DNA of 64,000 nt from a bacterium (GTDB lineage: Bacteria; Patescibacteriota; Minisyncoccia; Phycocordibacterales; UBA9973). The stretch covers positions 9,074 through 73,073 of the forward strand of contig JAKAKW010000011.1 of NCBI GenBank assembly GCA_021824345.1. Direction: 5' to 3'. Positions 1 to 55,939 of this stretch are shown here, piece after piece (the stretch's first letter is position 1; each line of letters begins with the position of its first letter). The position numbers and the translations under genes were made by a program. Below the pieces are notes generated by a model that did not search any database, was not told the DNA's origin, and saw nothing but the letters and a program-made list of their open reading frames with translations.

Positions 1-252
1 CTCCCCTTCCTCTTTTTCCGGTTCGTCCATGCGGGCGATCGTTTCGTCCACCACTATTTTCACTTGGAAGAATTGCACTTCGCCCGTATCCGGATCAAAC
101 TTGGCTCGGACGATCTGTCCGCGCTTGCCGTAATCTTTTTTGTAGGCGGCAGCCATAGCCTGCTCGATGGCGTCCAGAATTTTTTCTTTCGGAATTTTTC
201 TTTCCGTCTCCAATTGTTCCAACGCACTCTTGAATGTCTTTATGTCCAACAT
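1..252 (-). CDS. nusA: Transcription termination/antitermination factor NusA, N-terminal part (gene runs off the window edge)
   Basis: Reverse-strand translation from ATG (250-252) gives MLDIKTFKSALEQLETERKIPKEKILDAIEQAMAAAYKKDYGKRGQIVRAKFDPDTGEVQFFQVKIVVDE..., which matches the conserved NusA N-terminal domain (B. subtilis LEKEKGISKEIIIEAIEAALISAYKRNF..VRV..DVVDEV, recalled from memory); absent from the ORF track because no stop lies within the window. The track ORFs 64..429(+) and 95..394(-) are in other frames. Confidence 0.75.
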   Translation of the reverse strand, partial: MLDIKTFKSALEQLETERKIPKEKILDAIEQAMAAAYKKDYGKRGQIVRAKFDPDTGEVQFFQVKIVVDETIARMDEPEKEEGE

Positions 253-292
253 AATATTTTATTGTGCTTACTATTAAATTGTTCAGTCTATC

Positions 293-326
293 GGGCGGCT
301 CCCCGATATGCATCGGGGAGCCGCCC
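293..326. repeat. Perfect GC-rich hairpin (15-bp stem gggcggctccccgat / atcggggagccgccc, 4-nt loop atgc) in the divergent nusA / CTD-gene spacer
   Basis: Read directly from sequence; same style as the palindrome families elsewhere but a different sequence. Confidence 0.6.
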
Positions 327-564
327 TTCCCGCCCCGGCTTTTCACTAAAAAAAGCCCCGGCAGGACAGGACTTTGATGAAAAAAGCATAGCACGGAATG
401 TATTTATTCGCAACAGGCCCATATTTTAAACGAAACGCCATAAATATCGGATATATTAGTTGTATTTCGCGAACCGGCATGTGTGGAAAAACCCTCAATT
501 TTGTATTATATGCTTATTTAGCAATACATTTTTAAAATTCTTTTCCACAGCATATCCATATTCC

Positions 565-594
565 TTGACAAACCGTTTTAAAATGTTGTACAAT
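565..594 (+). promoter_or_regulatory. Sigma70-like promoter candidate (TTGACA 565-570, 18-nt spacer, TACAAT 589-594) upstream of the 713 gene
   Basis: Consensus -35 and near-consensus -10 hexamers at canonical spacing; followed by an AAAGGAG RBS before the ATG at 713. Confidence 0.4.
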
Positions 595-712
595 ACAACA
601 AAATACGCACTTTGTCAAAAATTTATTTTGGTTAGTTAATAAAGGGCATGAGTCGAAGCTCGCGCGCTTTAGTAGCTAACTAAAAATAAATAATAAAAAG
701 AAAGGAGCTAAA

Positions 713-1540
713 ATGAAAGCTCTTATAACTATTACGTTTTTTATTTTCCTGATGGCTGAAGTATCAGCTCAGGAAAAGTGGGAAATAATCAATTATGGAA
801 TTCCCATAATTGATTATCCGAATTGTACGGTATCGTACAATTCTGACGGGTCAGTATCGTTTAAGACATATTTGACCACTCCTGATCCACCACTAGATCC
901 AAAGCTGGTGGTTTACTGGAAGTCCACTCTTACAGTTCCAACAACTGTAAGAAACTTAATCTCTGGCAACTTCTCCTTGTTGGGAGATAGTACATTATTG
1001 GGAGTCCAGATCGGGTTTGGAATATCCCATGACGGAGAAAATTGGGCGTTTGTTTTTGGAACAAGCAAAGGAGATACAATGTTCCCCGGACAAAGCACAT
1101 ACTTGACGTGGGATATGACTAATCTCACTAAATATGGCGTCTCGTTGGATAGTGTGAAGGCGATAACAATCATTATCCAGTTGTTGACATCAAAGCCCGA
1201 ATATACTTGGGCGACAGTCAAGATGTGGAATTTGGGATATTCTAGTGTGACTGGAATAAAAAATCCTCACAAGAGGGAGGATTTTCAACTGAGTCAGAAT
1301 TTTCCTAATCCATTCAATCCGACAACTACGATACAATACCAGTTGCCCAAAGCTGGTAATGTAACTATAAGGGTTTATGATATTTTGGGCAATGAAGTAG
1401 CAACACTTGTTAATGGAGAAAAGCCTGCCGGCGTTTACGAAACGAAATTCAACGCTAGCAATCTTTCTTCCGGTCTGTACATCTACCAGCTCAAGGCTGG
1501 AAATTTTATGCAGACAAAAAAGATGATGCTATTGAAATAA
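713..1540 (+). CDS. Secreted protein with a T9SS-type C-terminal sorting domain (Por_Secre_tail-like)
   Basis: N-terminal signal peptide MKALITITFFIFLMAEVSAQE. The C-terminal ~80 aa FQLSQNFPNPFNPTTTIQYQLPKAGNVTIRVYDILGNEVATLVNGEKPAGVYETKFNASNLSSGLYIYQLKAGNFMQTKKMMLLK is a near-textbook T9SS CTD (NPFNP..T.I.F.LP....V.L.VYD..GR.V..L........G.Y....D.S.L.SGVYFY.L.AG.F..TKKM.LLK). RBS aaaggag precedes the ATG. The gene and its flanks are markedly AT-richer than neighbours. Confidence 0.8.
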   Translation: MKALITITFFIFLMAEVSAQEKWEIINYGIPIIDYPNCTVSYNSDGSVSFKTYLTTPDPPLDPKLVVYWKSTLTVPTTVRNLISGNFSLLGDSTLLGVQIGFGISHDGENWAFVFGTSKGDTMFPGQSTYLTWDMTNLTKYGVSLDSVKAITIIIQLLTSKPEYTWATVKMWNLGYSSVTGIKNPHKREDFQLSQNFPNPFNPTTTIQYQLPKAGNVTIRVYDILGNEVATLVNGEKPAGVYETKFNASNLSSGLYIYQLKAGNFMQTKKMMLLK

Positions 1541-1581
1541 AAAAATAAAGAAAGGAGTTATACATTGGAACAAAATTACCC

Positions 1582-1646
1582 GGCCTTACTTTTCATTTCA
1601 ACAATATATCAATATATATTGGAAAAGTAAGGCCTTTCTCGTTTTT
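1582..1646 (+). terminator. Rho-independent terminator candidate after the CTD gene
   Basis: 13-bp stem ggccttacttttc (1582-1594) / gaaaagtaaggcc (1622-1634) with an AT-rich loop, followed by tttctcgttttt. Confidence 0.55.
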
Positions 1647-1771
1647 AACCGTTTTTTATAAATATGGGGTTTTCCACACGCAAATGGCGTATTTTTAATG
1701 CTTATAAAGGTATAATAAAGACTATTAATGGAAAAGAAAGACAAACAACCTGTCTAAATCAAACTATATTT

Positions 1772-4700
1772 ATGCGTAAAAAAATTTGGATAATTTTACT
1801 GGGAGTGCTTGCTGTGGCTATCGGTTCGTTTCTGCTGTACGGTAAAATCTTCGCGGCCCTGCCTCCCGGACCGTTAATCTCAATTACCACTTCCGTGCCG
1901 GCCAATGTGGACCAAGGTTCTACAGTTTATATAGGATATACCGTGGATCCGAGAGGGTATACCACCACCTGTCAATGGAACAATCTGGGCGGGAGTCAAT
2001 CAATTACAAGTATCGGCCCGTCTCTTGTCTACACGGACAACAAGATGCCACTTTATGGCTTTAGCTCTAGCAATTCAACGGCATCAATCACTTGTCAAAA
2101 TGCGCAGGGAACCAATACGCGCACTATGGCTTTTAGTGTATGGAATAAAGTTTCCTTTAACGTTATAAGTGGCGTGCAACAGTACGTCGTGCCTTCGGGA
2201 GTAAGCACAATTGGAATTGCGGTGAAAGGCGCCGGAGGCGGACAAGGGGGCGGTGAAGGCGGAAGCAATAGTTATCCGGGCGCAAATGGAGGCAAGGGCG
2301 GAGTGACCGTTCAGTTTGTGAATGTTACCGCGGGAAGCGCTATAAATATAGTTGCGGGAGGAAAGGGACATGGCGGAGGATACAACTCGGGTGGCGGGGG
2401 CGGAGGAGCATCTGCGGCTTACTATCCATCTGACGGTTCCAGCTTTAAGATAATAGCTGGCGGAGGCGGAGGGGGAGGGGCTGATGCATGGGACGGCAAC
2501 AAAATTTATGGCGGGGTAGGCGGTATGGGCGGTACTACAACCGGCGGTGGCGGAGGCGGAGGAGCCGGCAACGGAGCCGGAACCACGCTGGTTGACAACA
2601 ATTCTTATGCCCAAGGAGGAATAGCAGGAGGCGGAGGAGGAGGAAGCGGTTATTACCCCGGAGGTACCAGTAGCGCTACTGGCGGTTACGGGGGAGTAGC
2701 TATCGGAATCTTTTCGGCCGGGCAGAACGCAACCAGTTCTTCCGGATGCGGATTATATGGGAAGGGAGGCAATGGCGGAAGTTTGCTTGACGCAGCCGGA
2801 GGAGTTTGTAACAGAGCCTCTCCTACCGCGGGAGGAGACGGGCTTTATTCTGTTACGGGCAGTGCCATAACTACCAATCTCTCCAATGCGTTTTCATATG
2901 GCAGTGCCTCAAGCGGAGGAAGCGGGGGATTGCAGGTGGGAAATGACGGTTCCGACGGGGCAGTCTATATCTTTACACCTTCTCCCACCCCTCCACCGCC
3001 AGCGCCCATAATTGAACTTTCCGCGCAGAATGTGACGATGAATACGAATTCTACCGCTTATTCTAAAATAACTGCGTTGACTACAAATGTTTCTAGGCTT
3101 GATTGTTCAGTTATTGCTCTTCCAAGCTTCTTATCTTCTCCTTCTGCCGATTGTGCTCAAGTAGCCATTAAATCTGGTTCTACTGCTACAAGTCCGAATA
3201 GCCCAGCACAAGTGTCAATTCTCGCAAAAGGATATGATTTAAATGGTAATGCTATTACTAGTTCCTCATCTTGTTTAGGTACTGCTGTATGGAATGGTCA
3301 GCTCGGAGGTTGTCTAGCCACTTTTGACGTTACAGTCGTCTCCACTCCATCTTGCACTACAACATCCCAAGCTTCTAATCTAACTTCCACGTCTGCCACC
3401 GCAGGCGGAAATATTTCTGACACTGGCGGGGTTCCCATAATTAATCATGGGGTGTGTTACTCTACAAGCGTTGGCAGTATCCAGAGCAATTGTCCGTCTG
3501 ACACCTCTTCTGTCTCTACCGGCTCTTTCGCAGAGTCTTTATCTAACCTCTCTCCCGGTACTTCTTATTATTATCAAGCATTCGCCCAAAATTCCGTTGG
3601 TACTACATATTGTACCAATATGGGTTCGTTTACTACGCCACAGTCAACCTCTTATCTCCCAGATCTTACGCCCGACCCTAATTATCCCGGGGTTACGTTT
3701 CCCACTCCCGTAGTTGCCGGGAGTTCTACAACGTTTTCCCAAAGGATAACAAACATAGGCTCGGCGTCTTCCGGCCCGTTTTATACCCTTGTCCGCTTTG
3801 ACAATGACGCCAACCATGCCACATACAATACGTCTCTCTCAAAAGAAATTTTCTATCCAAATAATTTGGTCCCGACAGGCATAGCGACTATCTCCGCTTC
3901 TCAGACACTTCCCTCTGCCGGCACCTGGTATGTTCAAGCGTGCGCTGACATAAGCAACGAATCTACCATGACCGGTACGATTTCCGAATCAAATGAGGGT
4001 AATAATTGCGGGAATTGGACGCAGATCACGGTGACATCAGCTCCGGCCGTTCCCACTTGTACTTCTCCTGTTGTTACTAACATTACTGACACCTCGGCCA
4101 CCGTAGGTGGTACCATTACTTCAGACGGAGGCGCTACGATCACTTCCCGAGGAGTGGCTGTTAAAAGCAGTACCGGTTCTTATATATACACCGATTTGGG
4201 CGGAACAACAGGTCCGGTTACGAGAGATATTATCAATCTTACGCCCGGTGCTACATACTATTTCCAAGCATGGGCGAATAATAGCGTAGGGAGAGGATAT
4301 TGCCCAGAAACTTCTTTTACCGCGTTAAGAAATACCACGATCAACGGTGTTTGTGCCCCTGTCCACTATAACTGCGCCGCGGGAACAAGTAGCAGTAATG
4401 CGCTATCTTTTAGCGGTCTTAACAGTGTTTATTCATGGGGTTGTCTTGGTTCTAACGGAGGAGTTCCCGCATCCCCTTCATGTTCAGAAACATTGTCTAT
4501 GTCCGGCACTCTTACATCCGATGCCCCTTCCTGTGTAATTCAATCCGGCCAGAGCAGTTGTAATGTTACTTTGACATGGGGTACTACAAATCCTCAAGGA
4601 GTTTCCTCTGTTACGAGTCCGACAGACAGCACAGGAGCCTCGGTGTCTACTAGGGTGGGGACGGGGGATTCCGGTAGCCAGTTGGTTTCTATACCCTATC

Positions 4701-7399
4701 CAGGCAGGACTTTCTTCCTTTACAACAATACCAAATCACTTGTTCCGACTTCTGAATCTCCTACCGGCTCTGGATTGCGAATTACTGCGACTAATAGTGC
4801 TCCTTCCGCCCCCGATCTAATCGCTGCAACGGTTTCCCCCACGGCGGCTAATACCGGGGTCTCCACCACCTTCTCCGCCACTATCACCAACCAAGGCACG
4901 GCCGCGACCGGCACCAGCTTCTACAACTTCTTCCAGAAAGCCACCGGTTCCGGAGGAACAGGGACGGTAACTGATCTCACCGCAACCCAAATGTCTGCCC
5001 TGGCGGCGGGAGGGACCGGCACGGCATCCGTCTCCACTTCCTTCCCCCCCGCAGGCACCTACTCCATGCGCGCCTGCGCGGACAAGAGTTCTTCTTCCAA
5101 TACCGGCACCATCACCGAATCAAATGAAAACAACAACTGCGGACCCTGGACGGATATTACGGTGACGACGCCGACAACGGTAGCTCCCGACCTCGTCGCC
5201 GGAGCGGTTGCCCCGACCACAGCCATCGCGGGTGACATCCAGCCTCTTTCTTCCGTGATCTCCAACCAAGGCAGTCTCTCCACTAATTCAAGTTTCTCCG
5301 TCAAGTTCAGCGTCTCCGCTTCTCCCAGCGGTACCGGGGCTTCCACTATCAACACAACCACCATGGCGGCCTTAAACAGCGGAACCAGCGCCACCGCCAC
5401 TGTCTCATATACCTTCCCTTCGGCCGGCACCTACTATGTCCAGGCCTGCGCTGATTCAACTAACGTAATCACCGAATCAAATGAGAACAACAATTGCGGG
5501 CCGTTGACGACTATTGCTGTATCGGTGCCCCTCCCCGTCTGTTCCGCTCCCTCCGTCAGCACCGGTACCTCCGCCTCCAACATTACTTCCAGTTCCGCCA
5601 CCGGTACCGGATATATCACTTCGGACGGCGGGTGCGCGGTAATCGTGAGCGGAGGCGTATGGAGCGTGTCTCATATCCCGACTACGGCGGATCCCGCTAC
5701 TTTAAGTCATACCACCGACGGCTGGGCAAGCGGGGGACCGTACAACATCAATATGACCAGCTTGTCTCCAAGCACTCCGTATTATTATCGCGCCTATGCC
5801 ACCAACTCGGCCGGCAAGACGGGATACGGGTCTGAAACACCCTTCACTACTTTGTCCATAATTCCGCCGACCTGTTCCGCTCCCTCCGTCAGCACCACTT
5901 CTCCGGCCGCGAGTATTACCCAATCATCGGCGGTCGGCGGAGGAACCATCTCTTCGGACGGCGGGTGTGCCGTCTCTGTGAGCGGAGTGGTATGGGGAAC
6001 TTCCAACAATCCGACATTCAACCCGAATTCCGGCCCGCTCACCGGTTCTACGGGCCAGACGACCGACGGCTGGGCCTCGGGCGGACCCTGGACCGACAAT
6101 ATGACCGGTCTTTCTCCGAGCACCCCATACTACTATCGCGCCTACGCGGAGAATAGCGCCGGTATCGCCTATGGCAACAATGTGTCTTTCACTACCTTGT
6201 CCGCCGCTTGTTCCGTTCCTTCCGTTACCACCGGTTATCCTCTGAGCAATATCGGCTACAATTCCGCTACTGGATCCGGAGCCGTAACCTGGTTTGCCGG
6301 CGACTGCCCGGCGACTGTGAGCGGGGTGGTATGGAGTACCGCGAGCGATCCGACATACAATCCCAATGCGGGCGCGTTTTCCGGTTCTTCCGGCCAAACC
6401 ACGGACGGAACGACGGCTCTTGGATCTTCTTGGTATGACACCATGACCGGTTTGTCTCCCGTCGCCAATTACCATTATCGCGCCTACGCGGTGAACAGCG
6501 CCGGAGTCGGATATGGCAACGATGTGGCTTTTTCCACCACCGTGGCGCCGCCGAATGCCATGACCGGGACTCTCTCCCCGAGCGCGAATTCCTGCGTCAT
6601 CAGCCAAAACGGCAACTCTTGTTATATAAACCTTTCCTGGAACACGACCAATCCGGCGGCGACGTCGGCTGTCACCTCATCGTATCCGAGCGCCAACACT
6701 GTTTTATTCAGCGGCAATTCCGGGACGAATGAGCTGGTTTGGATTCCATACAACTCCAGAGACTTGTATCTGTACAATAACGGCACTCTTTTGGACAGCA
6801 AGAACATAACATCTTCTTGCGCTCCCGGCACGACCTGGAACAACAGCGCTTGTATTCCCTCAGGCAGTCCGGTTTCCGTTTCCATTACCGCGGATTCTAC
6901 CCAGATAGCCTTGGGCGGTTCAACCACCTTGCGCTGGACATCCGCGGGCGCTTCTTCCTGTTCCGTCACTTCCACCCCTCCGGGATTTTCTTCCAATCTC
7001 ACCGCCGGAAGCGCCACTATCCAGCCTTCCGCTACTACCACCTATACGGCGCATTGCGGCGATAACCTTGGAAATTCCGCGAGCGATTCGGTCACTGTGC
7101 GGGTTTCTCTCTCCGCTCCATCGGTTACTCTGACCGCGAATCCGGCCGCTGTCGCGCAAGGGAGCCCCTCCACTCTTTCCTGGACTTCCGCCAACGCCAG
7201 TTACTGTTACGGGTCCAACTTCAATGTTCCCGCAAGCGGCCCCAGCACTTCCGGCTCCGTATCGGTGAGCCCGGCCGCCACCACAACCTATACCATCATT
7301 TGCGTGGCGCCGGACGGCACCCAAGTGACCGGTTCGGCTACCGTTACCGTTTTGCCTCCGGGTAATGGAGGAAAAGCGCCTGTATATAAGGAAAAGTAA
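1772..7399 (+). CDS. Giant (about 1875 aa) secreted/cell-surface protein with a glycine-rich region, three CARDB-like domains and several FN3-like tandem domains (putative adhesin)
   Basis: The ORF opens at 1664, but the first plausible start is the ATG at 1772 (MRKKIWIILLGVLAVAIGSFLLYG signal/TM). Residues about 190-360 are Gly-rich (GAGGGQGGGEGG...GGGGGGGAD...GGGGGGSGYYPGG). Three domains end in the CARDB signature ESNE[GN]NNCG[NP]W (about nt 3660-4030, 4800-5160, 5180-5520). Repeated ...LSP.T.YYYRAYA.NS.G..YG FN3-like modules follow. Clean rho-independent terminator downstream. Internal minus-strand track ORFs (2084..2614, 5924..6607, 6920..7414 etc.) are GC-rich frame artefacts. Confidence 0.8.
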   Translation: MRKKIWIILLGVLAVAIGSFLLYGKIFAALPPGPLISITTSVPANVDQGSTVYIGYTVDPRGYTTTCQWNNLGGSQSITSIGPSLVYTDNKMPLYGFSSSNSTASITCQNAQGTNTRTMAFSVWNKVSFNVISGVQQYVVPSGVSTIGIAVKGAGGGQGGGEGGSNSYPGANGGKGGVTVQFVNVTAGSAINIVAGGKGHGGGYNSGGGGGGASAAYYPSDGSSFKIIAGGGGGGGADAWDGNKIYGGVGGMGGTTTGGGGGGGAGNGAGTTLVDNNSYAQGGIAGGGGGGSGYYPGGTSSATGGYGGVAIGIFSAGQNATSSSGCGLYGKGGNGGSLLDAAGGVCNRASPTAGGDGLYSVTGSAITTNLSNAFSYGSASSGGSGGLQVGNDGSDGAVYIFTPSPTPPPPAPIIELSAQNVTMNTNSTAYSKITALTTNVSRLDCSVIALPSFLSSPSADCAQVAIKSGSTATSPNSPAQVSILAKGYDLNGNAITSSSSCLGTAVWNGQLGGCLATFDVTVVSTPSCTTTSQASNLTSTSATAGGNISDTGGVPIINHGVCYSTSVGSIQSNCPSDTSSVSTGSFAESLSNLSPGTSYYYQAFAQNSVGTTYCTNMGSFTTPQSTSYLPDLTPDPNYPGVTFPTPVVAGSSTTFSQRITNIGSASSGPFYTLVRFDNDANHATYNTSLSKEIFYPNNLVPTGIATISASQTLPSAGTWYVQACADISNESTMTGTISESNEGNNCGNWTQITVTSAPAVPTCTSPVVTNITDTSATVGGTITSDGGATITSRGVAVKSSTGSYIYTDLGGTTGPVTRDIINLTPGATYYFQAWANNSVGRGYCPETSFTALRNTTINGVCAPVHYNCAAGTSSSNALSFSGLNSVYSWGCLGSNGGVPASPSCSETLSMSGTLTSDAPSCVIQSGQSSCNVTLTWGTTNPQGVSSVTSPTDSTGASVSTRVGTGDSGSQLVSIPYPGRTFFLYNNTKSLVPTSESPTGSGLRITATNSAPSAPDLIAATVSPTAANTGVSTTFSATITNQGTAATGTSFYNFFQKATGSGGTGTVTDLTATQMSALAAGGTGTASVSTSFPPAGTYSMRACADKSSSSNTGTITESNENNNCGPWTDITVTTPTTVAPDLVAGAVAPTTAIAGDIQPLSSVISNQGSLSTNSSFSVKFSVSASPSGTGASTINTTTMAALNSGTSATATVSYTFPSAGTYYVQACADSTNVITESNENNNCGPLTTIAVSVPLPVCSAPSVSTGTSASNITSSSATGTGYITSDGGCAVIVSGGVWSVSHIPTTADPATLSHTTDGWASGGPYNINMTSLSPSTPYYYRAYATNSAGKTGYGSETPFTTLSIIPPTCSAPSVSTTSPAASITQSSAVGGGTISSDGGCAVSVSGVVWGTSNNPTFNPNSGPLTGSTGQTTDGWASGGPWTDNMTGLSPSTPYYYRAYAENSAGIAYGNNVSFTTLSAACSVPSVTTGYPLSNIGYNSATGSGAVTWFAGDCPATVSGVVWSTASDPTYNPNAGAFSGSSGQTTDGTTALGSSWYDTMTGLSPVANYHYRAYAVNSAGVGYGNDVAFSTTVAPPNAMTGTLSPSANSCVISQNGNSCYINLSWNTTNPAATSAVTSSYPSANTVLFSGNSGTNELVWIPYNSRDLYLYNNGTLLDSKNITSSCAPGTTWNNSACIPSGSPVSVSITADSTQIALGGSTTLRWTSAGASSCSVTSTPPGFSSNLTAGSATIQPSATTTYTAHCGDNLGNSASDSVTVRVSLSAPSVTLTANPAAVAQGSPSTLSWTSANASYCYGSNFNVPASGPSTSGSVSVSPAATTTYTIICVAPDGTQVTGSATVTVLPPGNGGKAPVYKEK
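5527..6545 (+). repeat. Three tandem ~340-bp repeats encoding FN3-like domains inside the giant surface protein
   Basis: Protein-level repeats CSAPSVST..SDGGCAV.VSGVVW......DGWASGGP....MT.LSPSTPYYYRAYA.NSAG..YG appear three times and are visibly similar at DNA level (cctccgtcagcacc...). Confidence 0.6.
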
Positions 7400-19155: not shown

Positions 19156-19476
19156 ATGGTTCAAATCAGGGTTCGGTATGTAAGCGATTCCATTCAAGAT
19201 TTTATTAAATCCTTAGACAAGCGTACTCGCATTGCGTGCCGCGAAGCTGTCGCCGCGCTTGCAATCTATGGCAATGAACTGACAATGCCTTTATCAAAAA
19301 ATATTGGCAATGGTCTTTTTGAGCTTAGGGTAAAAGAAATAGCAAACATTAGAATTATATATACTTTTTATCTTAATTCTGCGTGGATCCTCCATGTGTT
19401 TGAAAAGACGAGCAATAGAATTTCAAAAAACGACATGGCTATATGTTTGAAAAGAAAAAGGATGTTGCTTGCATAA
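19156..19476 (+). CDS. Type II toxin, RelE/ParE superfamily (HigB / phage Gp49-like)
   Basis: ...SKNIGNGLFELRVKEIANIRIIYTFYLNSAWILHVFEKTSN... matches the Gp49/HigB pattern (..LFELRI....YRVLYFF......LLHAF.KK.). An HTH gene follows immediately. Confidence 0.6.
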   Translation: MVQIRVRYVSDSIQDFIKSLDKRTRIACREAVAALAIYGNELTMPLSKNIGNGLFELRVKEIANIRIIYTFYLNSAWILHVFEKTSNRISKNDMAICLKRKRMLLA

Positions 19477-19504
19477 TATTACATATATGTGATATTATTA
19501 CTTT

Positions 19505-19846
19505 ATGGAAAATATGAAGAAAAAAATTAAAAAAAGAAATGGCACTTACGACGAAATAAAAGAAATAAGGCCGGTTGATTTTGAGGACGATTTGGCGGAG
19601 GAGCTGAAAGACCCCGAGTTCAAAAAAGAATTTCAAAAACTGGGCCCAAAATACGCTCTCTATGCCGCCGTCGTAGAAAGCAGGCACCAGAAAAATATTT
19701 CTCAAAAAACTCTTGCCAAGCGCCTCGGCACCGGCCAGTCGGCAATTTCCCGTCTTGAATCCGGCAAATACAACCCTACCTTTGAATTCATGCAAAAACT
19801 TGCAAAAGCCCTGGAAACCGACATTACTATAACTTTCAGCAAATGA
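19505..19846 (+). CDS. HTH XRE-family antitoxin (HigA-like)
   Basis: ...ISQKTLAKRLGTGQSAISRLESGKYNPTFEFMQKLAKAL: classic Cro/C1-type HTH. Toxin-then-antitoxin order as in higBA. Confidence 0.6.
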   Translation: MENMKKKIKKRNGTYDEIKEIRPVDFEDDLAEELKDPEFKKEFQKLGPKYALYAAVVESRHQKNISQKTLAKRLGTGQSAISRLESGKYNPTFEFMQKLAKALETDITITFSK

Positions 19847-21926: not shown

Positions 21927-22346
21927 CTAAGGAAAATAGGGATCTTTATTCTTCAGCACCAATTTTTTTGCTTCTTCAGCTAGGCGTTTGAATTTTTCTT
22001 CATCCTCATCCGTGAGCGAGTTTAATTTTTCAAATATTTCATTGAGCTTAGCTGTTCTTTTGGGATACTTTTCGATTCCGTTTTTCATTCTCTTATATTC
22101 AACAGCATCATCCCCGAACTTATTTTTTACTTCTCCCAACAATTTTTCCATTGTAGGAAAAAGATTTTCTTTTATTTCTTTATTAACCTCTGCAAATTTC
22201 CCATTCTGTTTTCTTAATTCCCTTACAAAATATGTGAGTGTAATTAAACATTCCTCAAAACCCAGGTTGTCAGGCACAGTCGTTAGATCTTCCTTCCCAG
22301 CATTCGTTTTTTCCATCTCGTTTCCATTCATATCAATATTGTACAT
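21927..22346 (-). CDS. Hypothetical K/E-rich coiled-coil protein (antisense to flanking genes)
   Basis: 139-aa ORF with no recognisable domain; AT-richer than flanks. Confidence 0.4.
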   Translation of the reverse strand: MYNIDMNGNEMEKTNAGKEDLTTVPDNLGFEECLITLTYFVRELRKQNGKFAEVNKEIKENLFPTMEKLLGEVKNKFGDDAVEYKRMKNGIEKYPKRTAKLNEIFEKLNSLTDEDEEKFKRLAEEAKKLVLKNKDPYFP

Positions 22347-22398: not shown

Positions 22399-25300
22399 AT
22401 GGCTTCCGGTGAAGAATCTAAAAAATCCGAATCTGCTCGGCGCGAAGAGCGGATTTTGGAGTTCTGGAAGGAGAATAAAATTTTTGAAAAAACTCTGGGA
22501 AAGCCGTCCCCCAAGGGGGAATTCGTTTTCTACGAAGGTCCGCCTACGGCCAATGGCAAACCTCACATAGGGCACTTTGAGGCGCGTTCTTTCAAGGATG
22601 CCGTTCCCAGGTACAAGACCATGCGCGGATACCATGTGCGTCGGAAAGGCGGATGGGACACCCACGGCCTGCCTGTGGAGCTTGCGGTGGAGAAAAAACT
22701 CGGGCTTAGTTCCAAAAAGGGGATAGAGGAATACGGAATTGCCAAGTTCAACGAGCAATGCAAGGAAAGCGTATGGGAATATGTGAACCTATGGGAAAAG
22801 TTCACCGAGCGCGTGGGATACTGGGTGGATCAGAAGGATGCCTACGTCACTTACCATAACGATTACATTGAATCTCTTTGGAATATCGTAAAAAAAATAG
22901 ATGAACAAGAACTGCTTTACAAGGATTACAAAGTGGTTCCGTGGTGTCCGCGCTGCGGGACGGCCCTTTCCTCGCACGAATTGGCGCAGGGATATGAGGA
23001 TGTGAAGGATCTGTCGGTGTATGTGAAATTCCGCGTGAAATCTTCGCCTGACGCTTTTGCGAAGGTCCTCGGTTCCCCTCGCACAAAGCTTGCTCCTTCG
23101 GAGCTGGAAGCTCGGCCAGACCATTCGCAAAAGCATTCAGTCGAGGATTTCACATATATTCTGGCATGGACCACTACCCCCTGGACTTTGCCGGGCAACG
23201 TTGCTTTAGCGGTAGGAAAAGATATTGATTACACCGCTTTGCGCGTAAAAGGGGTTTCCGAATTGTATATTCTCGCAAGCGATAGGGTAAAGAGTGTCTT
23301 TGAAGGGCAGGAAATTGAAATTGTGCATGACAACATAAAAGGATCAGATCTTGTCGGCCTGGAATACGAACCCTTGTATCCGTATTTCGCGAACACTCTT
23401 CCTGAGAGCGAAAAGTCCAAACTTCCAAAAGCATACAAGGTTTACGAAGCGGATTTTGTGACAACCGTTGACGGCACGGGCGTGGTGCATACCGCCGTGA
23501 TGTACGGACAAGACGACTTCGTGCTGGGCACCGCTATCGGTTTGCCCAAGCACCATCTCGTGGGTCTGGACGGGAAATTCCTGGCCGGCACTGATTTTCT
23601 TGAAGGAAGATTCGTGCGAGACGAAGATGTGGCAGTGGACATTATCAAAGACCTTGCGCACCGGAACCTTTTGCTAAAGAAAGAAAAGTACGAACACTCA
23701 TATCCTTTCTGCTGGCGCTGCCATACCGCGCTCATATATTACGCGCGGGACTCGTGGTACATAAAAGTTTCAGATCCGCGGATTAAGGAAAAGATGATTT
23801 CTGAGAATGAGAAGATAAACTGGGAGCCGGCGCACATTCGGGACGGGCGTTTCGGAGAATGGCTGCGCGATATCAAGGACTGGGCGATTTCCCGCGAGCG
23901 GTACTGGGGAACTCCGCTTCCGGTGTGGACATGCGAGAAATGCAACCAGAGGATTACCATCGGAAGCATTGAGGAACTGAAAAAGCATACGAAGAAATCC
24001 GGCAATCGGTACTTCTTTATGCGGCATGGAGAAGCAGAGAGCAATGTTAAGGGTATGGTGGCTTGCAGAGTGGAGGATAACGATAATTTAATCGAGGCCG
24101 GGAAACAACAAGTATTGTCTTCGGCAAAACAACTAAAAGAAAAGAATATTGATCTTATTTTCTCCTCGGATATTTTGAGGACGAAAGAGACAGCTGAAAT
24201 TGTTAAAAAAGAAATTAGTACTGAAAAAGAAATAATTTTTGACAAGCGCCTGCGCGAGTGGAACGTAGGAAAATTTGACGGAAAAACATGGCACGAATAT
24301 AAAAAATTTGCGCGCCAACACGATGATTGGTACAGTTTTATCCCTGAGGGAGGCGAATCATTCAAAGATATAAAGATTAGAGTTTTTGATTTCATTTACG
24401 AATTGGAGAATAAATACCAAGGGAAAAATATCTTGATCGTCACTCACCAGGCTCCGATTGTAGTTATTCTTAAGGGTTTAGATAAACTTAATGATGAAGA
24501 TACAAAGGCAGGTGATAGCGATGTGAACTTAAGATTCAAGGGAGGAGAGTTTAAAGAGATAGATTTTACCTTACTTCCCCACAACAAAAACTACGAGCTG
24601 GATTTGCACCGGCCATACATAGACGAGGTTCCGCTGGTCTGCGATTGCGGAGGAAAACTTTCTCGTACACCGGAGGTTATGGACGTCTGGTTTGATTCCG
24701 GTTCCATGCCGTTTGCCCAGGATCATTATCCTTTTGAGAACAAAGACTGGATTGACGATCACGGATATCCGGCTGATTTCATATCGGAGGCCATAGATCA
24801 GACTCGCGGATGGTTCTATACCCTGCACGCCGTGGGAGCGCTTGTGGGGAAGGGCAGGGCATACAAAAATGTAATCTGTCTCGGACACCTGATGGATGCC
24901 GAGGGAAAGAAAATGTCAAAACATATCGGCAACGTAGTGGACCCCTGGGAGATGATAGAGAAATACGGGGCGGATACTTTGCGATTATGGATGTACTCCA
25001 TAAACCAGCCGGGCGAGTCCAAGAATTTTGATGAAAAAACGGTGGTGCTTCTCCACCGGCAAATGTTCGGTCTGCTTTACAATGTGCTTTCTTTCTACGA
25101 GCTTTACCGCGACAAAGAGCTTGAGACGATGGGAGGCAAGGCCTCCCACCGGCCTGCCTCGGAAAATATTCTGGATAAGTGGATAATTACGCGATTAAAC
25201 GAGCTGGAGATTCTGTGCACGGAAAATCTTGAGAAATATAAATTATTGGAACCCGTGCGGGCCATGCGCGATTTCATCGACGATCTGTCCACTTGGTATT

Positions 25301-26016
25301 TGCGCCGATCCAGGGAGCGCATTAAGGACGGGGACAAGGATGCCAAGCGCACTTTGTACTTTGTGTTGAAAAATCTTGCCAAGCTTCTGGCCCCGTTCGC
25401 TCCTTTTGCCACCGAGGATATATGGCAAAAGCTTAAAAGCGATGAGGACCCTGCAAGCGTTCATTTGTCCGAGTGGCCGTACAAGGACCAATCCCTTTTG
25501 CAAAAGCTTTTCGGAAAGAAAGAAAAAGTGGATTACTCAGTGCTGGAAAATATGCGCCGAGCCAGGCAGATTGTGACAATGGGCTTGGAAGCTCGGCAGA
25601 AAGCGGGCATAAAGGTGCGCCAACCGCTCGGACTTTTGAGGATAAAGGATCGGAATCTTTCATCGGAGTATGAAGAGCTCATCAAGGACGAGCTCAATGT
25701 TAAAGAAATTGCCAAAGATGCCGGCCTAGAAGGAGAAGTGTTGCTTAATACTGAAATTACTCCTGAACTTAAAGAAGAAGGCGACTATCGCGAACTGGTT
25801 CGCGCTATTCAGGATATGCGCAAAGAGGCGGGGCTCTTACCGAGCGACATGGTAACGCTTCTTTTGGATACTGATGAATCTGGCGAAAAGCTGGCCAAAA
25901 AATTTGAAGAAGATCTGAAGAAAACTGTTAGCGCCGAAAAAATTGAATTCACGGAAAGCGACGGTCCGGAAATCAAAATCGGCAATTCAGCGTTTAAGAT
26001 AAAAATTCAAAAATAG
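22399..26016 (+). CDS. ileS: Isoleucine--tRNA ligase (type 2) carrying three insertions
   Basis: HIGH (PTANGKPHIGH), CP1 editing (WTTTPWTLPGN), KMSKS (KMSKHIGN). 1205 aa is about 150-200 aa longer than typical type-2 IleS. Insertions at 23062-23128, 24001-24570 and 25130-25148 are annotated separately. Confidence 0.9.
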   Translation: MASGEESKKSESARREERILEFWKENKIFEKTLGKPSPKGEFVFYEGPPTANGKPHIGHFEARSFKDAVPRYKTMRGYHVRRKGGWDTHGLPVELAVEKKLGLSSKKGIEEYGIAKFNEQCKESVWEYVNLWEKFTERVGYWVDQKDAYVTYHNDYIESLWNIVKKIDEQELLYKDYKVVPWCPRCGTALSSHELAQGYEDVKDLSVYVKFRVKSSPDAFAKVLGSPRTKLAPSELEARPDHSQKHSVEDFTYILAWTTTPWTLPGNVALAVGKDIDYTALRVKGVSELYILASDRVKSVFEGQEIEIVHDNIKGSDLVGLEYEPLYPYFANTLPESEKSKLPKAYKVYEADFVTTVDGTGVVHTAVMYGQDDFVLGTAIGLPKHHLVGLDGKFLAGTDFLEGRFVRDEDVAVDIIKDLAHRNLLLKKEKYEHSYPFCWRCHTALIYYARDSWYIKVSDPRIKEKMISENEKINWEPAHIRDGRFGEWLRDIKDWAISRERYWGTPLPVWTCEKCNQRITIGSIEELKKHTKKSGNRYFFMRHGEAESNVKGMVACRVEDNDNLIEAGKQQVLSSAKQLKEKNIDLIFSSDILRTKETAEIVKKEISTEKEIIFDKRLREWNVGKFDGKTWHEYKKFARQHDDWYSFIPEGGESFKDIKIRVFDFIYELENKYQGKNILIVTHQAPIVVILKGLDKLNDEDTKAGDSDVNLRFKGGEFKEIDFTLLPHNKNYELDLHRPYIDEVPLVCDCGGKLSRTPEVMDVWFDSGSMPFAQDHYPFENKDWIDDHGYPADFISEAIDQTRGWFYTLHAVGALVGKGRAYKNVICLGHLMDAEGKKMSKHIGNVVDPWEMIEKYGADTLRLWMYSINQPGESKNFDEKTVVLLHRQMFGLLYNVLSFYELYRDKELETMGGKASHRPASENILDKWIITRLNELEILCTENLEKYKLLEPVRAMRDFIDDLSTWYLRRSRERIKDGDKDAKRTLYFVLKNLAKLLAPFAPFATEDIWQKLKSDEDPASVHLSEWPYKDQSLLQKLFGKKEKVDYSVLENMRRARQIVTMGLEARQKAGIKVRQPLGLLRIKDRNLSSEYEELIKDELNVKEIAKDAGLEGEVLLNTEITPELKEEGDYRELVRAIQDMRKEAGLLPSDMVTLLLDTDESGEKLAKKFEEDLKKTVSAEKIEFTESDGPEIKIGNSAFKIKIQK
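23062..23128 (+). repeat. About 66-nt repeat element inserted in-frame in ileS (encodes roughly AKVLGSPRTKLAPSELEARPDHSQ); second copy at 36154-36215
   Basis: aggtcctcggttcccctcgc...agctggaagctcggccagaccat has a 23-nt identical core and about 75-80% identity over 70 nt with the tatD-rpsF spacer copy. From a remembered T. thermophilus IleS alignment, this IleS has about 28 extra residues between VKFRVK and WTTTPWTLPGN. Confidence 0.65.
24001..24570 (+). other. Inserted histidine-phosphatase (phosphoglycerate-mutase-like) domain within ileS
   Basis: FFMRHGEAESN (RHG catalytic motif), IFSSDILRTKETAEIV, DKRLREWNVG, IPEGGES, IVTHQAPI match the PhoE/GpmB-type histidine phosphatase fold. The insert lies between the conserved PVWTCEKC...ELKKH and DLHRPYIDEV...VMDVWFDSG IleS segments and is AT-richer than the flanking ileS sequence. 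Confidence 0.7.
25130..25148. repeat. Family-B palindrome copy (tgggaggcaaggcctccca) in-frame inside ileS, encoding GGKASH
   Basis: Exact match to the intergenic family-B element (31422-31440); translates as MGGKASH within a variable IleS linker. Confidence 0.6.
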
Positions 26017-49884: not shown

Positions 49885-50829
49885 CTACTGGCTCACAACG
49901 CTTTTGAAATACTCAATGGTTTTCTTTAGGCCTTCTTCCAGGGGAATCTTCGGTTCCCATTTTAATTTTTCTTTTGCGAGGGTTATATCCGGCTTCCGGC
50001 GGCGGGGGTCATCTTCAGGCAAGCCCTTGAAGACTATTTTTGATTTTGATTCTGACAAGTTTAATATCTTTTCTGCGATATCAAGCACGGTTCTCTCATC
50101 CGGATTGCCCAAGTTAACTGGTCCGGTAAAATCGCTGTTCATAAGCTTAACGAGTCCTAAGACCATATCTGAAACATAACAGAAAGATCGTGTTTGCCGT
50201 CCGTCGCCGTATACCGTCAAATCTTTTCCTTCAATTGCCTGCACAATAAAATTAGAAACCACTCTTCCGTCGTCTGCATTCATGCCGGGTCCGTAAGTGT
50301 TGAAGATTCTGGCAACACGTATCTTTGTTCCATACTTTCTCTGAAAATCAAAAAAAAGAGTCTCCGCTATTCTTTTTCCTTCGTCATAGCAGGATCTTAT
50401 GCCGATAGGGTTTACGTTTCCTTTATATTTTTCATTTTGCGGACTTTCCAAAGGGTCACCATAGATTTCGGATGTTGAGGATTGGAGAATTTTTGCATTA
50501 TTTGCTCTTGCCAGTTCCAGGACATTAAGCACGCCTATGGTGTTTGTCTGAATGGTGTGCACGGGATCAAGTTGGTAGTGTACGGGAGACGCGGGACAAG
50601 CAAGATTGTATATTTCGTCTATTTTCTGTTTTGGAAATTCTGCATTAATAATGTCTTTCTTTATGAATGTAAAGCGTTTTTCTTCCAAGAGGTGCCGGAG
50701 ATTTTCCATGCTTCCAGTCAATAAATTATCAACCCCGATGATTCTATAGTTTTCATTTTCAAGAAGATAACGGGAAAGATTGCTACCGATAAATCCTGCG
50801 CAACCCGTTATCATAATTGTTTTTGTCAT
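49885..50829 (-). CDS. UDP-glucuronate decarboxylase (UDP-xylose synthase)-like extended SDR
   Basis: IMITGCAGFIGSNL...VDNLLTGS...YGDPL.SPQ.E.Y.GNVNPIGIRSCYDEGKR... is characteristic of UXS/ArnA-decarboxylase enzymes. The track ORF begins at a TTG at 50868; the ATG at 50829 (MTKTIMITG) is the likely start. Confidence 0.75.
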   Translation of the reverse strand: MTKTIMITGCAGFIGSNLSRYLLENENYRIIGVDNLLTGSMENLRHLLEEKRFTFIKKDIINAEFPKQKIDEIYNLACPASPVHYQLDPVHTIQTNTIGVLNVLELARANNAKILQSSTSEIYGDPLESPQNEKYKGNVNPIGIRSCYDEGKRIAETLFFDFQRKYGTKIRVARIFNTYGPGMNADDGRVVSNFIVQAIEGKDLTVYGDGRQTRSFCYVSDMVLGLVKLMNSDFTGPVNLGNPDERTVLDIAEKILNLSESKSKIVFKGLPEDDPRRRKPDITLAKEKLKWEPKIPLEEGLKKTIEYFKSVVSQ

Positions 50830-55930: not shown

Positions 55931-55939
55931 ATTTCCTAT

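What the first reader, a model, noticed from the sequence alone, without database searches (positions are those of the whole stretch)
430..1770. AT-rich island carrying a gene with a Bacteroidota-type T9SS C-terminal sorting domain
The 713..1540 protein ends in an almost consensus Por_Secre_tail CTD (NPFNP..T.I.Y.LP..G.V.I.VYD.LG.EVATLVN.....G.Y...F.AS.LSSGLY.Y.L.AG.F..TKKM.LLK) and has a Sec signal peptide. The gene and its about 280-bp and about 230-bp flanks are conspicuously AT-richer than the nusA side and the GC-rich giant gene that follows. It has its own strong promoter and terminator. T9SS is an outer-membrane machine of the FCB lineage. No T9SS component is evident in this window, and the rest of the contig looks like a minimal-genome, possibly monoderm organism. 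This suggests a horizontally acquired gene, an unrecognised role of the CTD fold as a surface-display tag, or a misbinned/chimeric contig.
Basis: partly seen in the sequence, partly recalled or inferred. Interest (0 to 1): 0.55.

Follow-up and report, generated by a model that had tools for sequence, protein, structure and literature searches.

The report
T9SS-type sorting domain in a CPR bacterium
A small secreted protein in a Paceibacterota (CPR) genome carries a well-conserved Bacteroidota-style type IX secretion sorting domain, and it is a resident, conserved gene, not a foreign island or an assembly error, which is odd because these bacteria are thought to lack the outer membrane that this domain normally serves.

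Summary
The gene (713..1540, 275 aa) is real. Its last ~80 residues pass the curated cut-offs for the T9SS type A sorting domain (PF18962 48.2 bits against 27; TIGR04183 47.3 against 23). It also has a signal peptide, a near-consensus promoter and a strong terminator hairpin.

The "AT-rich island" reading does not hold. The gene's GC ranks 6th lowest of 54 genes (z -1.35), its flanks resemble other spacers, and 7.6% of equal-sized windows deviate as much in tetranucleotides. Chimerism is rejected: 13 contigs carry the exact protein, and two per-run assemblies match both junctions 100%.

The host is a Paceibacterota/Patescibacteria bacterium (NusA 77-85% identical to named relatives). Two related genomes hold full-length homologues at the same nusA / giant-CARDB-gene / tpiA-pgk locus, and one of those MAGs has a second, unrelated sorting-domain protein. 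Within the family the sorting domain is 51-73% identical, while the orphan N-terminal domain is only 14-27%. So the sorting domain is the constrained part.

Most likely it is a long-resident, Sec-exported surface protein whose sorting domain came from an Ignavibacteria-like donor and now does something other than outer-membrane translocation. Absence of T9SS genes was checked over only about 81 kb.

The parts
1..252 (-). 5' end of nusA, the divergent neighbour and the taxonomic anchor of the locus
   Evidence: Full NusA (424 aa) on L001 carries NusA_N, S1 and KH domains. Its best named relatives, at 77-85% identity, are all Paceibacterota, Parcubacteria, Nomurabacteria or Minisyncoccia.
565..594 (+). 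Sigma-70-type promoter-like site, TTGACA-18 nt-TACAAT
   Evidence: Matches 11 of 12 positions. It overlaps a minus-strand promoter-like site at 618->590 that could serve nusA. This is a prediction only. The number of such sites in the region (7) is not above the shuffled expectation (5.6).
701..707 (+). Ribosome-binding site AAAGGAG, 5 nt upstream of the ATG
   Evidence: Read directly from the sequence.
713..769 (+). Signal peptide (residues 1-19); predicted cleavage VSA|Q leaves Gln at position +1
   Evidence: By inspection: an n-region (MK), a hydrophobic h-region and a VSA cleavage motif. The model shows a helix at residues 2-17. No dedicated signal-peptide predictor was available.
770..1300 (+). 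N-terminal all-beta domain (residues 20-196), an orphan outside a tiny family
   Evidence: The indexed search found only the protein itself. The exhaustive HMMER search of 1.84 billion representatives found only P0246 (E 2e-10) and a likely spurious repeat protein, P0247. With sorting domains removed it is related to L089_284, L091_296 and P0003/P0004. AlphaFold pLDDT is about 50, all beta-strands. No Pfam hit.
1301..1540 (+). T9SS type A C-terminal sorting domain (residues 197-275) plus stop codon
   Evidence: PF18962 48.2 bits against 27. TIGR04183 47.3 bits against 23. All 14 invariant columns are kept. The domain-only model has pLDDT 88 and seven strands. Foldseek top hits include T9SS cargo sorting domains 8glk_D and 8qb1_A.
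1582..1646 (+). Intrinsic-terminator-like hairpin (13-bp perfect stem, 27-nt loop with an inner stem) followed by a T-run
   Evidence: Inverted repeat I6. Fold -28.5 kcal/mol, z-score -4.85, and 0 of 200 shuffles fold as well. The simple scanner missed it because the loop is long.
1772..7399 (+). Neighbouring giant surface-protein gene (about 1875 aa from the ATG at 1772; the ORF as called starts at 1664), linked to the small gene by synteny
   Evidence: Three CARDB stretches, 115.8 bits, plus sub-threshold fn3-like hits. A giant CARDB gene sits at the same locus in L089, L090 and L095.

Best explanation
The gene is a genuine, long-resident gene of a Paceibacterota (CPR/Patescibacteria; NCBI phylum Minisyncoccota) genome. 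It encodes a Sec-exported protein of about 255 mature residues with two parts. The first is a fast-evolving all-beta N-terminal domain known only from this small family. The second is a strongly conserved C-terminal beta-sandwich that is a bona fide member of the T9SS type A sorting-domain family.

The gene belongs to a variable surface-protein locus: nusA | small secreted protein(s) plus a giant CARDB/fn3 protein | tpiA-pgk. Full-length homologues with the same two-domain architecture occupy this locus in at least two other Paceibacterota genomes.

The sorting-domain module, and possibly the whole cargo-style architecture, was acquired from an FCB-group (Ignavibacteria-like) donor in an ancestor of these genomes, not recently.

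Inferred mechanism: the host presumably has no outer membrane and no T9SS. After Sec export and signal-peptide cleavage, the protein ends up on or outside the cell surface. The sorting domain is the most constrained part of the protein. It is retained as a folded binding or anchoring handle, not as an outer-membrane translocation signal. The variable N-terminal domain supplies specificity.

Shown: the ORF, domain membership, fold, conservation pattern, synteny, host taxonomy and reproducibility of the assembly. Inferred: export, absence of T9SS from the whole genome, the direction and age of the transfer, and what the sorting domain does.
For: - Domain membership.
- Host identity: NusA relatives. 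CPR-type gene content with no outer-membrane or T9SS families across about 81 kb. My sorting-domain HMM finds only this one domain in that stretch.
- Not an artefact: 13 contigs carry the exact protein, and two Logan assemblies are 100% identical across both junctions.
- Not an island.
- Synteny and homology: L089 has nusA | CARDB 1563 aa | Por_Secre_tail 284 aa | TIM | PGK. L091 has a Por_Secre_tail 296-aa gene divergent from nusA. win275 against L089_284 is 33.6% identical over the full length, E 2e-39.
- The N-terminal domains alone are still related: win275-L089 1e-7, L089-L091 1e-6, win275-P0246 6e-16 locally and 2e-10 against 1.84 billion proteins.
- Constraint: sorting domains are 51-73% identical against 14-27% for the N-terminal domains, and every CPR member passes the PF18962 cut-off at 42-47 bits.
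- Long residence: the gene's GC equals the host-contig mean in L088, L089 and L091.
- Donor type: the closest sorting domains among named proteins and 80 genome loci are almost all Ignavibacteria, Bacteroidota, Kryptoniota, Calditrichaeota or Balneolaceae.
- A second, unrelated sorting-domain protein (P0086, NCBI HEU0085896.1) sits in CPR context in the same MAG as L091.
- Literature: absence of an outer membrane is proposed for Patescibacteria (PMC12102498). T9SS is described as specific to Bacteroidetes or the FCB superphylum (PMC11611037, PMC12398890, PMC9170169).
Against: - Absence of T9SS and of an outer membrane was checked over only about 81 kb of a genome that is probably several hundred kb or more; the contig alone is 219-327 kb.
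- The function of the sorting domain in this host is pure inference. Conservation could reflect folding constraints alone.
- The N-terminal domain model is low-confidence, so its binding role is a guess.
If they come from FCB genomes, the whole gene may have moved more recently than I argue.
- win275's sorting domain is closer to P0003/P0004 (72-73%) and to FCB domains (mean 67%) than to its syntenic homologues (53-54%). That fits domain exchange or repeated transfer as well as it fits vertical descent.
- Only 3 of 7 related genomes examined carry the gene at this locus.
Confidence: 0.6

Rival explanations
1. Ordinary T9SS cargo. This Paceibacterota lineage encodes a T9SS and an outer membrane elsewhere in its genome, and the protein is exported and surface-attached in the canonical way.
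For: The architecture is exactly cargo-like: a Sec signal peptide plus a type A sorting domain at the extreme C-terminus. The domain is under strong constraint. At least two different sorting-domain proteins occur in one related MAG. Only about 81 kb of the genome was inspected.
Against: No T9SS or outer-membrane Pfam family appears in about 81 kb here, or in the roughly 115 kb of related CPR loci L088-L091 and L093-L095. Absence of an outer membrane is proposed for Patescibacteria (PMC12102498). T9SS is described as confined to the FCB group (PMC12398890, PMC9170169). Only one sorting domain occurs in 81 kb, whereas T9SS organisms typically carry many.
Confidence: 0.07
2. Recent horizontally acquired AT-rich island from an Ignavibacteria-like donor.
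For: The sorting domain is 65-73% identical to Ignavibacteria-type domains. The gene has its own promoter and terminator. Its GC is on the low side of the window. Predicted Gln at +1 after the signal peptide matches the Q-rule reported for Bacteroidetes and Ignavibacterium (PMC5837995). Its distribution among relatives is patchy.
Against: It is not a composition or tetranucleotide outlier. There are no mobility genes, no tRNA and no bordering repeats. Full-length homologues sit at the same locus in relatives whose N-terminal domains have diverged to 17-25% identity from it. GC matches the host contig in three other genomes. No N-terminal-domain homologue was found in any FCB locus or in 1.84 billion representatives apart from family members. 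Gln at +1 also occurs in an unrelated CPR secreted family.
Confidence: 0.1
3. Assembly chimera or mis-binned contig.
For: A hallmark FCB domain on a CPR contig is the classic signature of contamination.
Against: The gene lies internally (position about 133.5 kb) on a 219-kb contig, and on one of up to 327 kb, with CPR housekeeping genes on both sides. Thirteen contigs from several sources carry it. Two per-run Logan assemblies match 100% across both junctions. The same arrangement occurs in independent related genomes.
Confidence: 0.02
4. Inter-species targeting. The CPR cell is an epibiont or parasite of a T9SS-bearing FCB bacterium. It uses sorting-domain-tagged secreted proteins to engage the partner's PorV/SprA machinery or sorting-domain-binding surface components, so the domain works as a signal read by the host, not by the producer.
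For: The domain keeps every residue that is invariant in FCB domains, which is more than a bare fold would require. The closest domains are from Ignavibacteria-type organisms, and gene flow implies contact. CPR bacteria are widely thought to be host-dependent epibionts (PMC12102498 abstract). The locus is a variable surface-protein locus, and in one relative it adjoins type IV pilus-like genes.
Against: There is no evidence of any physical association. T9SS reads sorting domains in the periplasm, which a foreign protein would first have to reach. No co-occurrence data are available here. The idea is entirely inferential.
Confidence: 0.12
5. Decaying relic. The sorting domain was inherited with a transferred gene and has no function in the CPR host.
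For: No cognate machinery was detected nearby. The distribution among relatives is patchy.
Against: The sorting domain is two to three times better conserved than the N-terminal domain across homologues: 51-73% against 14-27%. All CPR copies score 42-47 bits against PF18962. All invariant positions are retained.
Confidence: 0.08

Closest known systems
T9SS type A cargo proteins of Bacteroidota/Ignavibacteriota (C-terminal domain TIGR04183 / PF18962 Por_Secre_tail)
   Same: N-terminal Sec signal peptide plus a C-terminal sorting domain of about 80 residues at the very end of the protein. Above both curated cut-offs. All invariant motif residues are present: QN.PNP.NP.T, G, G, G.Y, KM. Seven-strand beta-sandwich whose top structural matches include the NucA substrate domain bound to the T9SS translocon (8glk_D, TM 0.66/0.74) and the mirolase domain (8qb1_A). 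60-73% identical to Ignavibacteria-type domains.
   Different: The host is a Paceibacterota (CPR) genome with no T9SS or outer-membrane genes in the 81 kb inspected, from a phylum proposed to lack an outer membrane. Only one sorting domain occurs in 81 kb. The N-terminal passenger domain has no relatives in FCB genomes.
NCBI HEU0085896.1 (P0086), annotated 'T9SS type A sorting domain-containing protein [Candidatus Paceibacterota bacterium]'
   Same: A sorting domain 67% identical to this one, in typical CPR gene context, in the same MAG (GCA_035714785.1) that carries the syntenic homologue L091_296. This shows that automatic annotation has already flagged the domain in this phylum.
   Different: It has an unrelated passenger of 449-486 aa with a dockerin-like segment just below the cut-off (22.1 bits against 22.9), and it sits at a different locus.
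FlgD Ig-like domain (PF13860) and generic Ig-like sandwiches
   Same: Same fold class. PF13860 matches residues 206-262 at 24.0 bits. FlgD 3osv, S-layer and macroglobulin domains appear among the Foldseek hits.
   Different: Below the PF13860 gathering score of 27, while the T9SS model scores twice as high. The T9SS-specific N-terminal motif QNFPNPFNP is present.
Type B T9SS C-terminal domain (CHU_C, PF13585)
   Same: A C-terminal sorting domain of FCB bacteria, with a weak match at 19.3 bits.
   Different: Below the gathering score of 27, so this is a type A domain, not type B.

Membership tests
T9SS type A C-terminal sorting domain (PF18962 / TIGR04183) | Profile HMM score above the curated cut-off | tested here: met
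   PF18962 48.2 bits against 27. TIGR04183 47.3 bits against 23. CPR homologues score 42-47 bits.
T9SS type A C-terminal sorting domain (PF18962 / TIGR04183) | The domain lies at the extreme C-terminus of the protein | tested here: met
   Residues 197-272 of 275, covering profile positions 2-74 of 75.
T9SS type A C-terminal sorting domain (PF18962 / TIGR04183) | Ig-like seven-strand beta-sandwich fold resembling solved T9SS sorting domains | tested here: met
   The domain-only AlphaFold model has pLDDT 88.2 and seven strands. Foldseek ranks 2 and 3 are 8glk_D and 8qb1_A, both T9SS cargo domains, but E is only about 2e-3 and generic Ig-like folds score similarly. Sequence similarity to solved 8glj_D is marginal, E 0.1-0.3.
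T9SS type A C-terminal sorting domain (PF18962 / TIGR04183) | Conserved motif residues shared by family members | tested here: met
   All 14 columns invariant across 51 aligned sequences are present, and they are retained in the CPR homologues.
Functional T9SS cargo protein | N-terminal Sec signal peptide | tested here: met
   MKALITITFFIFLMAEVSA|Q by inspection, with a helix at residues 2-17 in the model. No dedicated predictor was available, so the cleavage site is an estimate.
Functional T9SS cargo protein | T9SS machinery (SprA, PorV, PorK/L/M/N, PorU) encoded in the same genome | tested here: inconclusive
   None appears among the precomputed Pfam hits of all called genes across about 81 kb, nor in related CPR loci. 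The rest of the genome could not be reached.
Functional T9SS cargo protein | The producer has an outer membrane | not testable with these tools
   [quoted passage not shown] No Bam, Lpt or Lpx families appear in the inspected loci.
Functional T9SS cargo protein | The sorting domain is cleaved by PorU and the cargo is attached to anionic LPS or released | not testable with these tools
   Needs proteomics or genetics.
Recently acquired genomic island | Composition (GC, GC3, tetranucleotides) deviates from the host | tested here: not met
   GC rank 6 of 54 (z -1.35) and GC3 rank 7 of 54. 7.6% of windows are as deviant. GC equals the host mean in three other genomes.
Recently acquired genomic island | Mobility genes, a tRNA target or flanking direct repeats | tested here: not met
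   No tRNA in the window. No integrase or transposase among the neighbours. Only short, probably chance repeats at the borders.
Recently acquired genomic island | Absent from the same site in close relatives | tested here: inconclusive
   Present at the locus in 3 of 7 related genomes (window, L089, L091). Absent from L090, L094 and L095. L093 is truncated 1.9 kb from nusA.
Assembly chimera | Junctions not reproducible in independent assemblies | tested here: not met
   L002 and L003, per-run Logan assemblies, are 100% identical over window 1-5568. Thirteen contigs carry the exact protein. Read coverage could not be examined.

The most novel reading that the evidence does not exclude
The sorting domain is kept in CPR bacteria because it is read by someone else's machinery. 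A Paceibacterota epibiont would secrete domain-tagged proteins that dock onto, or are processed by, the T9SS/PorV apparatus or domain-binding surface of an Ignavibacteria/Bacteroidota partner. That would make a secretion signal into an inter-species targeting tag. It would also point to FCB bacteria as hosts of this CPR clade. A weaker version is that CPR cells have an unknown surface-attachment system of their own that recognises this domain.
Probability: 0.12. Interest if true: 0.85.

Novelty: new variant of a known kind. Interest (0 to 1): 0.5.

Why it matters
The T9SS C-terminal domain is treated as a diagnostic of FCB-group diderm bacteria and as a signal for crossing an outer membrane. 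Here it is conserved, syntenic and under visible constraint in a CPR lineage that is not expected to have either. There are two possible consequences. Either the domain has a second function (surface handle, partner-binding module, or inter-species tag), or this CPR clade has an envelope or machinery nobody has described. It also gives a concrete, testable clue to gene flow, and perhaps physical association, between Paceibacterota and Ignavibacteria-type bacteria. Hosts of most Paceibacterota are unknown. On the practical side, a Por_Secre_tail hit alone should not be used to call contamination of CPR bins.

Tried and rejected
- The N-terminal domain was searched alone. The indexed 5.8-billion-protein search returned only the protein itself. 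The exhaustive HMMER search returned only P0246 plus a likely spurious beta-propeller-repeat protein, P0247.
- The 'extended' matches in Ignavibacteria loci (L018, L030, L031, L040) disappeared when the sorting domain was removed.
- I considered the three small secreted proteins at the same locus in L090 as homologues lacking the sorting domain. Rejected: hhalign probability 8%, signal peptide only.
- The full-length AlphaFold model has an N-terminal domain at pLDDT about 50. Foldseek on it gave only generic alignments at rmsd around 20 Å, so I discarded them.
- Metagenome scans: the whole-family alignment was too divergent to scan. The P0003/P0004 alignment found nothing. The L089/P0246 alignment found only a copy of L089's own gene on a 2.7-kb contig. 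The genomic origin of P0003, P0004 and P0246 therefore stays unknown.
- Viral-contig scans for the N-terminal domain found nothing, so there is no sign of phage carriage.
- The species-representative genome scan was swamped by the QNFPNPFN motif, and the source genome is not a representative.
- The listing of cluster members gave no organism names for window proteins.
- Literature searches found no paper linking CPR/Patescibacteria to T9SS sorting domains.
- Gln at +1 was tried as an FCB hallmark. It is suggestive but not specific, because another CPR secreted family also shows it.
- Rfam found nothing in the window.
Full report
**What is at the coordinates**

The window has an ORF at 713..1540 on the + strand that encodes 275 residues. 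An AAAGGAG ribosome-binding site lies at 701-707. A near-consensus promoter-like site, TTGACA-18-TACAAT, lies at 565..594 and matches 11 of 12 positions. A 13-bp perfect hairpin at 1582-1594/1622-1634 is followed by TTTCTCGTTTTT. It folds far better than shuffled sequence: z -4.85, with 0 of 200 shuffles as stable.

The last ~80 residues are a T9SS type A sorting domain by both curated models. PF18962 scores 48.2 bits against a gathering score of 27. TIGR04183 scores 47.3 bits against a cut-off of 23. The match covers residues 197-272 and profile positions 2-74 of 75. The type B model (CHU_C, 19.3 bits) and FlgD_ig (24.0 bits) stay below their cut-offs of 27. All 14 columns that are invariant in an alignment with 50 relatives are present.

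A model of the domain alone is confident (pLDDT 88.2, seven strands). Its best structural matches include two solved T9SS cargo domains: 8glk_D, the NucA substrate bound to the translocon (TM 0.66/0.74), and 8qb1_A, the mirolase C-terminal domain. E-values are only about 2e-3, and generic Ig-like sandwiches score nearly as well.

The N-terminus, MKALITITFFIFLMAEVSA|QEKW, looks like a signal-peptidase-I signal peptide. This is by inspection, supported by a modelled helix at residues 2-17. So the descriptive part of the finding is correct.

**The 'AT-rich island' is not a compositional anomaly**

The region is AT-richer than its two immediate neighbours. Judged against the whole window, though, it is ordinary:
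- Gene GC is 0.397, sixth lowest of 54 genes (z -1.35). GC3 is 0.417, seventh lowest.
- The flanks have GC 0.37 and 0.28, inside the 0.19-0.67 range of the other 22 intergenic spacers.
- In tetranucleotide distance to the window, 7.6% of equal-sized windows are at least as deviant, and 18% for the coding part alone.
- The most deviant windows lie inside the giant gene (4.6-6 kb) and a PG_binding_1 gene near 45 kb. Both have very high second-position GC (0.58-0.63), which fits Ser/Thr/Gly-rich proteins. It is the giant neighbour that is unusual, not this gene.
- No tRNA, no integrase or transposase and no convincing bordering repeats mark an insertion.
- Part of the upstream 'flank' is probably the shared divergent control region with nusA.

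**It is not an assembly artefact**

The exact protein is called on 13 contigs from NCBI, ENA and Logan. The longest is 327 kb. In GCA_027428375.1 the gene sits at about 133.5 kb of a 219-kb contig. Two per-run Logan assemblies (SRR13240876 and SRR13299515) are 100% identical to window 1-5568. That stretch spans nusA, the gene and the start of the giant gene.

**Who the host is**

The adjacent NusA is 77-85% identical to proteins that the sources name Candidatus Paceibacterota, Pacebacteria, Parcubacteria, Nomurabacteria, Minisyncoccia or Patescibacteria group. NCBI now places Paceibacterota under phylum Minisyncoccota.

Gene content across the window and its flanks is typical of CPR genomes. 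It comprises dense housekeeping genes, an intein-containing RecA, an H+-pyrophosphatase, NUDIX hydrolases and a large sugar-nucleotide/glycosyltransferase cluster. The precomputed Pfam hits over about 81 kb include no outer-membrane, LPS or T9SS family. A sorting-domain HMM that I built from 112 hits finds only this one domain in that stretch.

For Patescibacteria the absence of an outer membrane is proposed (PMC12102498). T9SS is described as specific to Bacteroidetes or the FCB superphylum (PMC11611037, PMC12398890, PMC9170169). I could not inspect the rest of the genome, so absence of T9SS remains an inference.

**The decisive new evidence: conserved homologues in related CPR genomes**

I looked at the nusA neighbourhood in six related genomes:
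- **L089** (NusA 85% identical): nusA | CARDB giant gene (1563 aa) | Por_Secre_tail protein (284 aa) | TIM | PGK.
- **L091** (NusA 84%, MAG GCA_035714785.1): a 296-aa Por_Secre_tail protein divergent from nusA, exactly as in the window. The contig ends just beyond it.
- **Same MAG as L091:** it also carries a second, unrelated sorting-domain protein in CPR context. This is P0086, NCBI HEU0085896.1, which NCBI already annotates as a T9SS type A sorting domain-containing protein of Candidatus Paceibacterota.
- **L090, L094 and L095:** these have other small secreted proteins at the locus. L093 is truncated 1.9 kb from nusA.

So the locus is a variable surface-protein locus, and the sorting-domain gene is present in 3 of 7 genomes.

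The three proteins are homologous over their full length. win275 against L089_284 is 33.6% identical over residues 1-275, E 2e-39. win275 against L091_296 is 32% identical over residues 68-275. With the sorting domains cut off, the N-terminal domains are still related:
- win275-L089: 1e-7
- L089-L091: 1e-6
- L089-P0246: 8e-10
- win275-P0246: 6e-16 locally, and 2e-10 against 1.84 billion representatives

 P0003 and P0004, from 1-kb ENA contigs, join through L089 (1e-6 and 9e-5). All members pass the PF18962 cut-off at 42-47 bits. The three small proteins in L090 are unrelated (hhalign probability 8%).

**The sorting domain is the constrained part**

Across family members the sorting domains are 51-73% identical. 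The N-terminal domains are only 14-27% identical, apart from the close pair P0003/P0004. The CPR domains are about as similar to FCB domains (means 55-67%) as FCB domains are to each other (63%), and they keep the invariant residues. A functionless relic would not behave this way.

In L088, L089 and L091 the gene's GC equals its host contig's mean (z -0.09, -0.15, +0.17). Taken with the synteny, this argues for long residence, not recent import.

**Where the domain came from**

The closest domains are 60-69% identical. Among named proteins and the 80 best species-representative loci, nearly all are Ignavibacteria, Bacteroidota, Kryptoniota, Calditrichaeota, Balneolaceae or Melioribacter. The N-terminal domain has no relative in any of those loci, in the indexed database, or in the exhaustive search beyond the family itself.

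A second cargo-style feature is a predicted Gln at position +1 after the signal peptide. It appears in every member with an intact N-terminus (VSA|QEKW, TFS|QQKW, VRA|QGNW, IVA|QSWN, LSG|QSIV) and in the extended form of P0086 (LWG|QS). The 'Q-rule' is reported for Bacteroidetes (mean 71%) and Ignavibacterium (77%), with low values elsewhere (PMC5837995). However, my cleavage sites are hand estimates, and an unrelated CPR secreted family also shows FA|Q. I count this as supporting evidence only.

One observation cuts the other way. win275's sorting domain is closer to P0003/P0004 (72-73%) than to its syntenic homologues (53-54%). So exchange of the domain, or repeated transfer, cannot be excluded.

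**How it most likely works**

Shown: a resident, expressed-looking gene for a two-domain protein with a signal peptide, an orphan fast-evolving beta domain, and a conserved T9SS-type sorting domain. It lies in a variable surface-protein locus beside a giant CARDB/fn3 protein.

Inferred: the protein is exported by Sec, and the signal peptide is removed before Gln20. In a cell without an outer membrane the protein reaches the surface directly. The sorting domain cannot then act as an outer-membrane translocation signal for its producer. I think it most likely serves as a stable Ig-like handle that binds a conserved partner, either a component of the cell's own surface or a partner organism's. 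The variable N-terminal domain would provide specificity.

My confidence is about 0.6 in the package 'resident CPR gene, anciently acquired domain, non-canonical role'. It is much lower for any specific role.

**Rivals**

- **Ordinary cargo with an undetected T9SS (0.07).** This needs a whole-genome search to kill.
- **Recent island (0.10).** It is contradicted by composition, synteny and divergence.
- **Chimera (0.02).** It is contradicted by reproducible junctions.
- **Relic domain (0.08).** It is contradicted by the conservation pattern.
- **Inter-species targeting (0.12).** The domain would be read by the T9SS/PorV machinery of an FCB partner. That would explain why T9SS-specific residues are kept, and would nominate FCB bacteria as hosts. 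Nothing here tests it.

**Comparison with what is known, and novelty**

As a domain, this is a clear member of the type A T9SS sorting-domain family. All four domain-level criteria were tested and met. As a functional T9SS cargo, membership is unproven. The machinery criterion is inconclusive, and the outer-membrane and processing criteria are untestable here.

Database annotation already labels at least one Paceibacterota protein this way. I found no paper that discusses the domain in CPR bacteria.

I rate it a new variant of a known kind: a known sorting module, conserved in a lineage where its known mechanism should not operate. Interest is 0.5. The anomaly is real and reproducible and gives testable leads, but one whole-genome search could make it ordinary.

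Noticed in passing
window 293-375 (minus strand, upstream of the nusA start at 252): The nusA 5' leader holds a perfect 15-bp palindrome (293-307/312-326) and a terminator-like hairpin with a T-run (375->352). A minus-strand promoter-like site at 618->590 overlaps the + strand promoter of the sorting-domain gene. This could be a transcription-attenuation leader for nusA and a shared divergent control region.
   Followed up: no
window 482-490 (-), 541-549 (+), 1670-1678 (+): Three of the window's four copies of TTTTCCACA flank the sorting-domain gene; about 1.0 copy is expected in 64 kb, and only 1 of 100 shuffles reached 4. One lies just upstream of the giant gene. It may be a shared regulator-binding motif.
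   Followed up: partly
window 1539-1630: The ribosome-binding region (689-710) is repeated right after the stop codon (1539-1560, 82% identical). The frame that follows reads LEQNYPALLFISTIYQYILEK*. It matches the start of the sorting-domain profile weakly (6.1 bits, E about 0.005 among 12 translated frames). This may be a decayed remnant of a second sorting-domain gene, now overlapped by the terminator hairpin, or it may be chance.
   Followed up: partly
L095:1-9707 (GCA_035402945.1, NusA 79% identical): In this relative, the small secreted protein and the giant CARDB gene next to nusA lie directly upstream of T2SSE and T2SSF ATPase/platform genes. Small proteins with type IV pilin-like N-termini follow (MKHFYQKGILLIEILIVIAIIG...). 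This links the variable surface locus to a pilus cluster.
   Followed up: no
window 38214-40415 (-) and 22399-26016 (+): RecA is interrupted by an intein with a LAGLIDADG endonuclease domain. The 1205-aa isoleucyl-tRNA synthetase-like protein has a His_Phos_1 (histidine phosphatase) domain inserted between its two tRNA-synt_1 segments.
   Followed up: no
window 50000-64000: A large sugar-nucleotide, glycosyltransferase and Wzy-like cluster has GC 0.38-0.43, as AT-rich as or richer than the flagged gene. On composition it is a better candidate for a variable or acquired region.
   Followed up: no
window 19156-19846 and 21927-22346 (-): A Gp49/HTH (HigB/HigA-like) toxin-antitoxin pair has GC 0.37-0.42. 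Similar pairs occur near the ClpP/trigger-factor genes in L090 and L091. A 139-aa ORF with no Pfam hit has the lowest GC in the window, 0.338.
   Followed up: no
L089:13466-14071, L093:5261-5926, L095:13480-14202: A conserved CPR secreted protein with no Pfam hit, encoded after the H+-pyrophosphatase gene, also has a predicted Gln at +1 after its signal peptide (VFA|QS, LFA|QN, SFA|QA). Gln at +1 is therefore not restricted to the sorting-domain family in these genomes.
   Followed up: partly
L087 (ENA ERZ25039603 contig_4700, 767 kb): P0002, the best non-self hit, carries two tandem passenger-plus-sorting-domain units in one 467-aa protein. It lies in an FCB-type neighbourhood (Fib_succ_major, Tricorn protease, multihaem cytochromes) with another small sorting-domain protein nearby.
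   Followed up: partly
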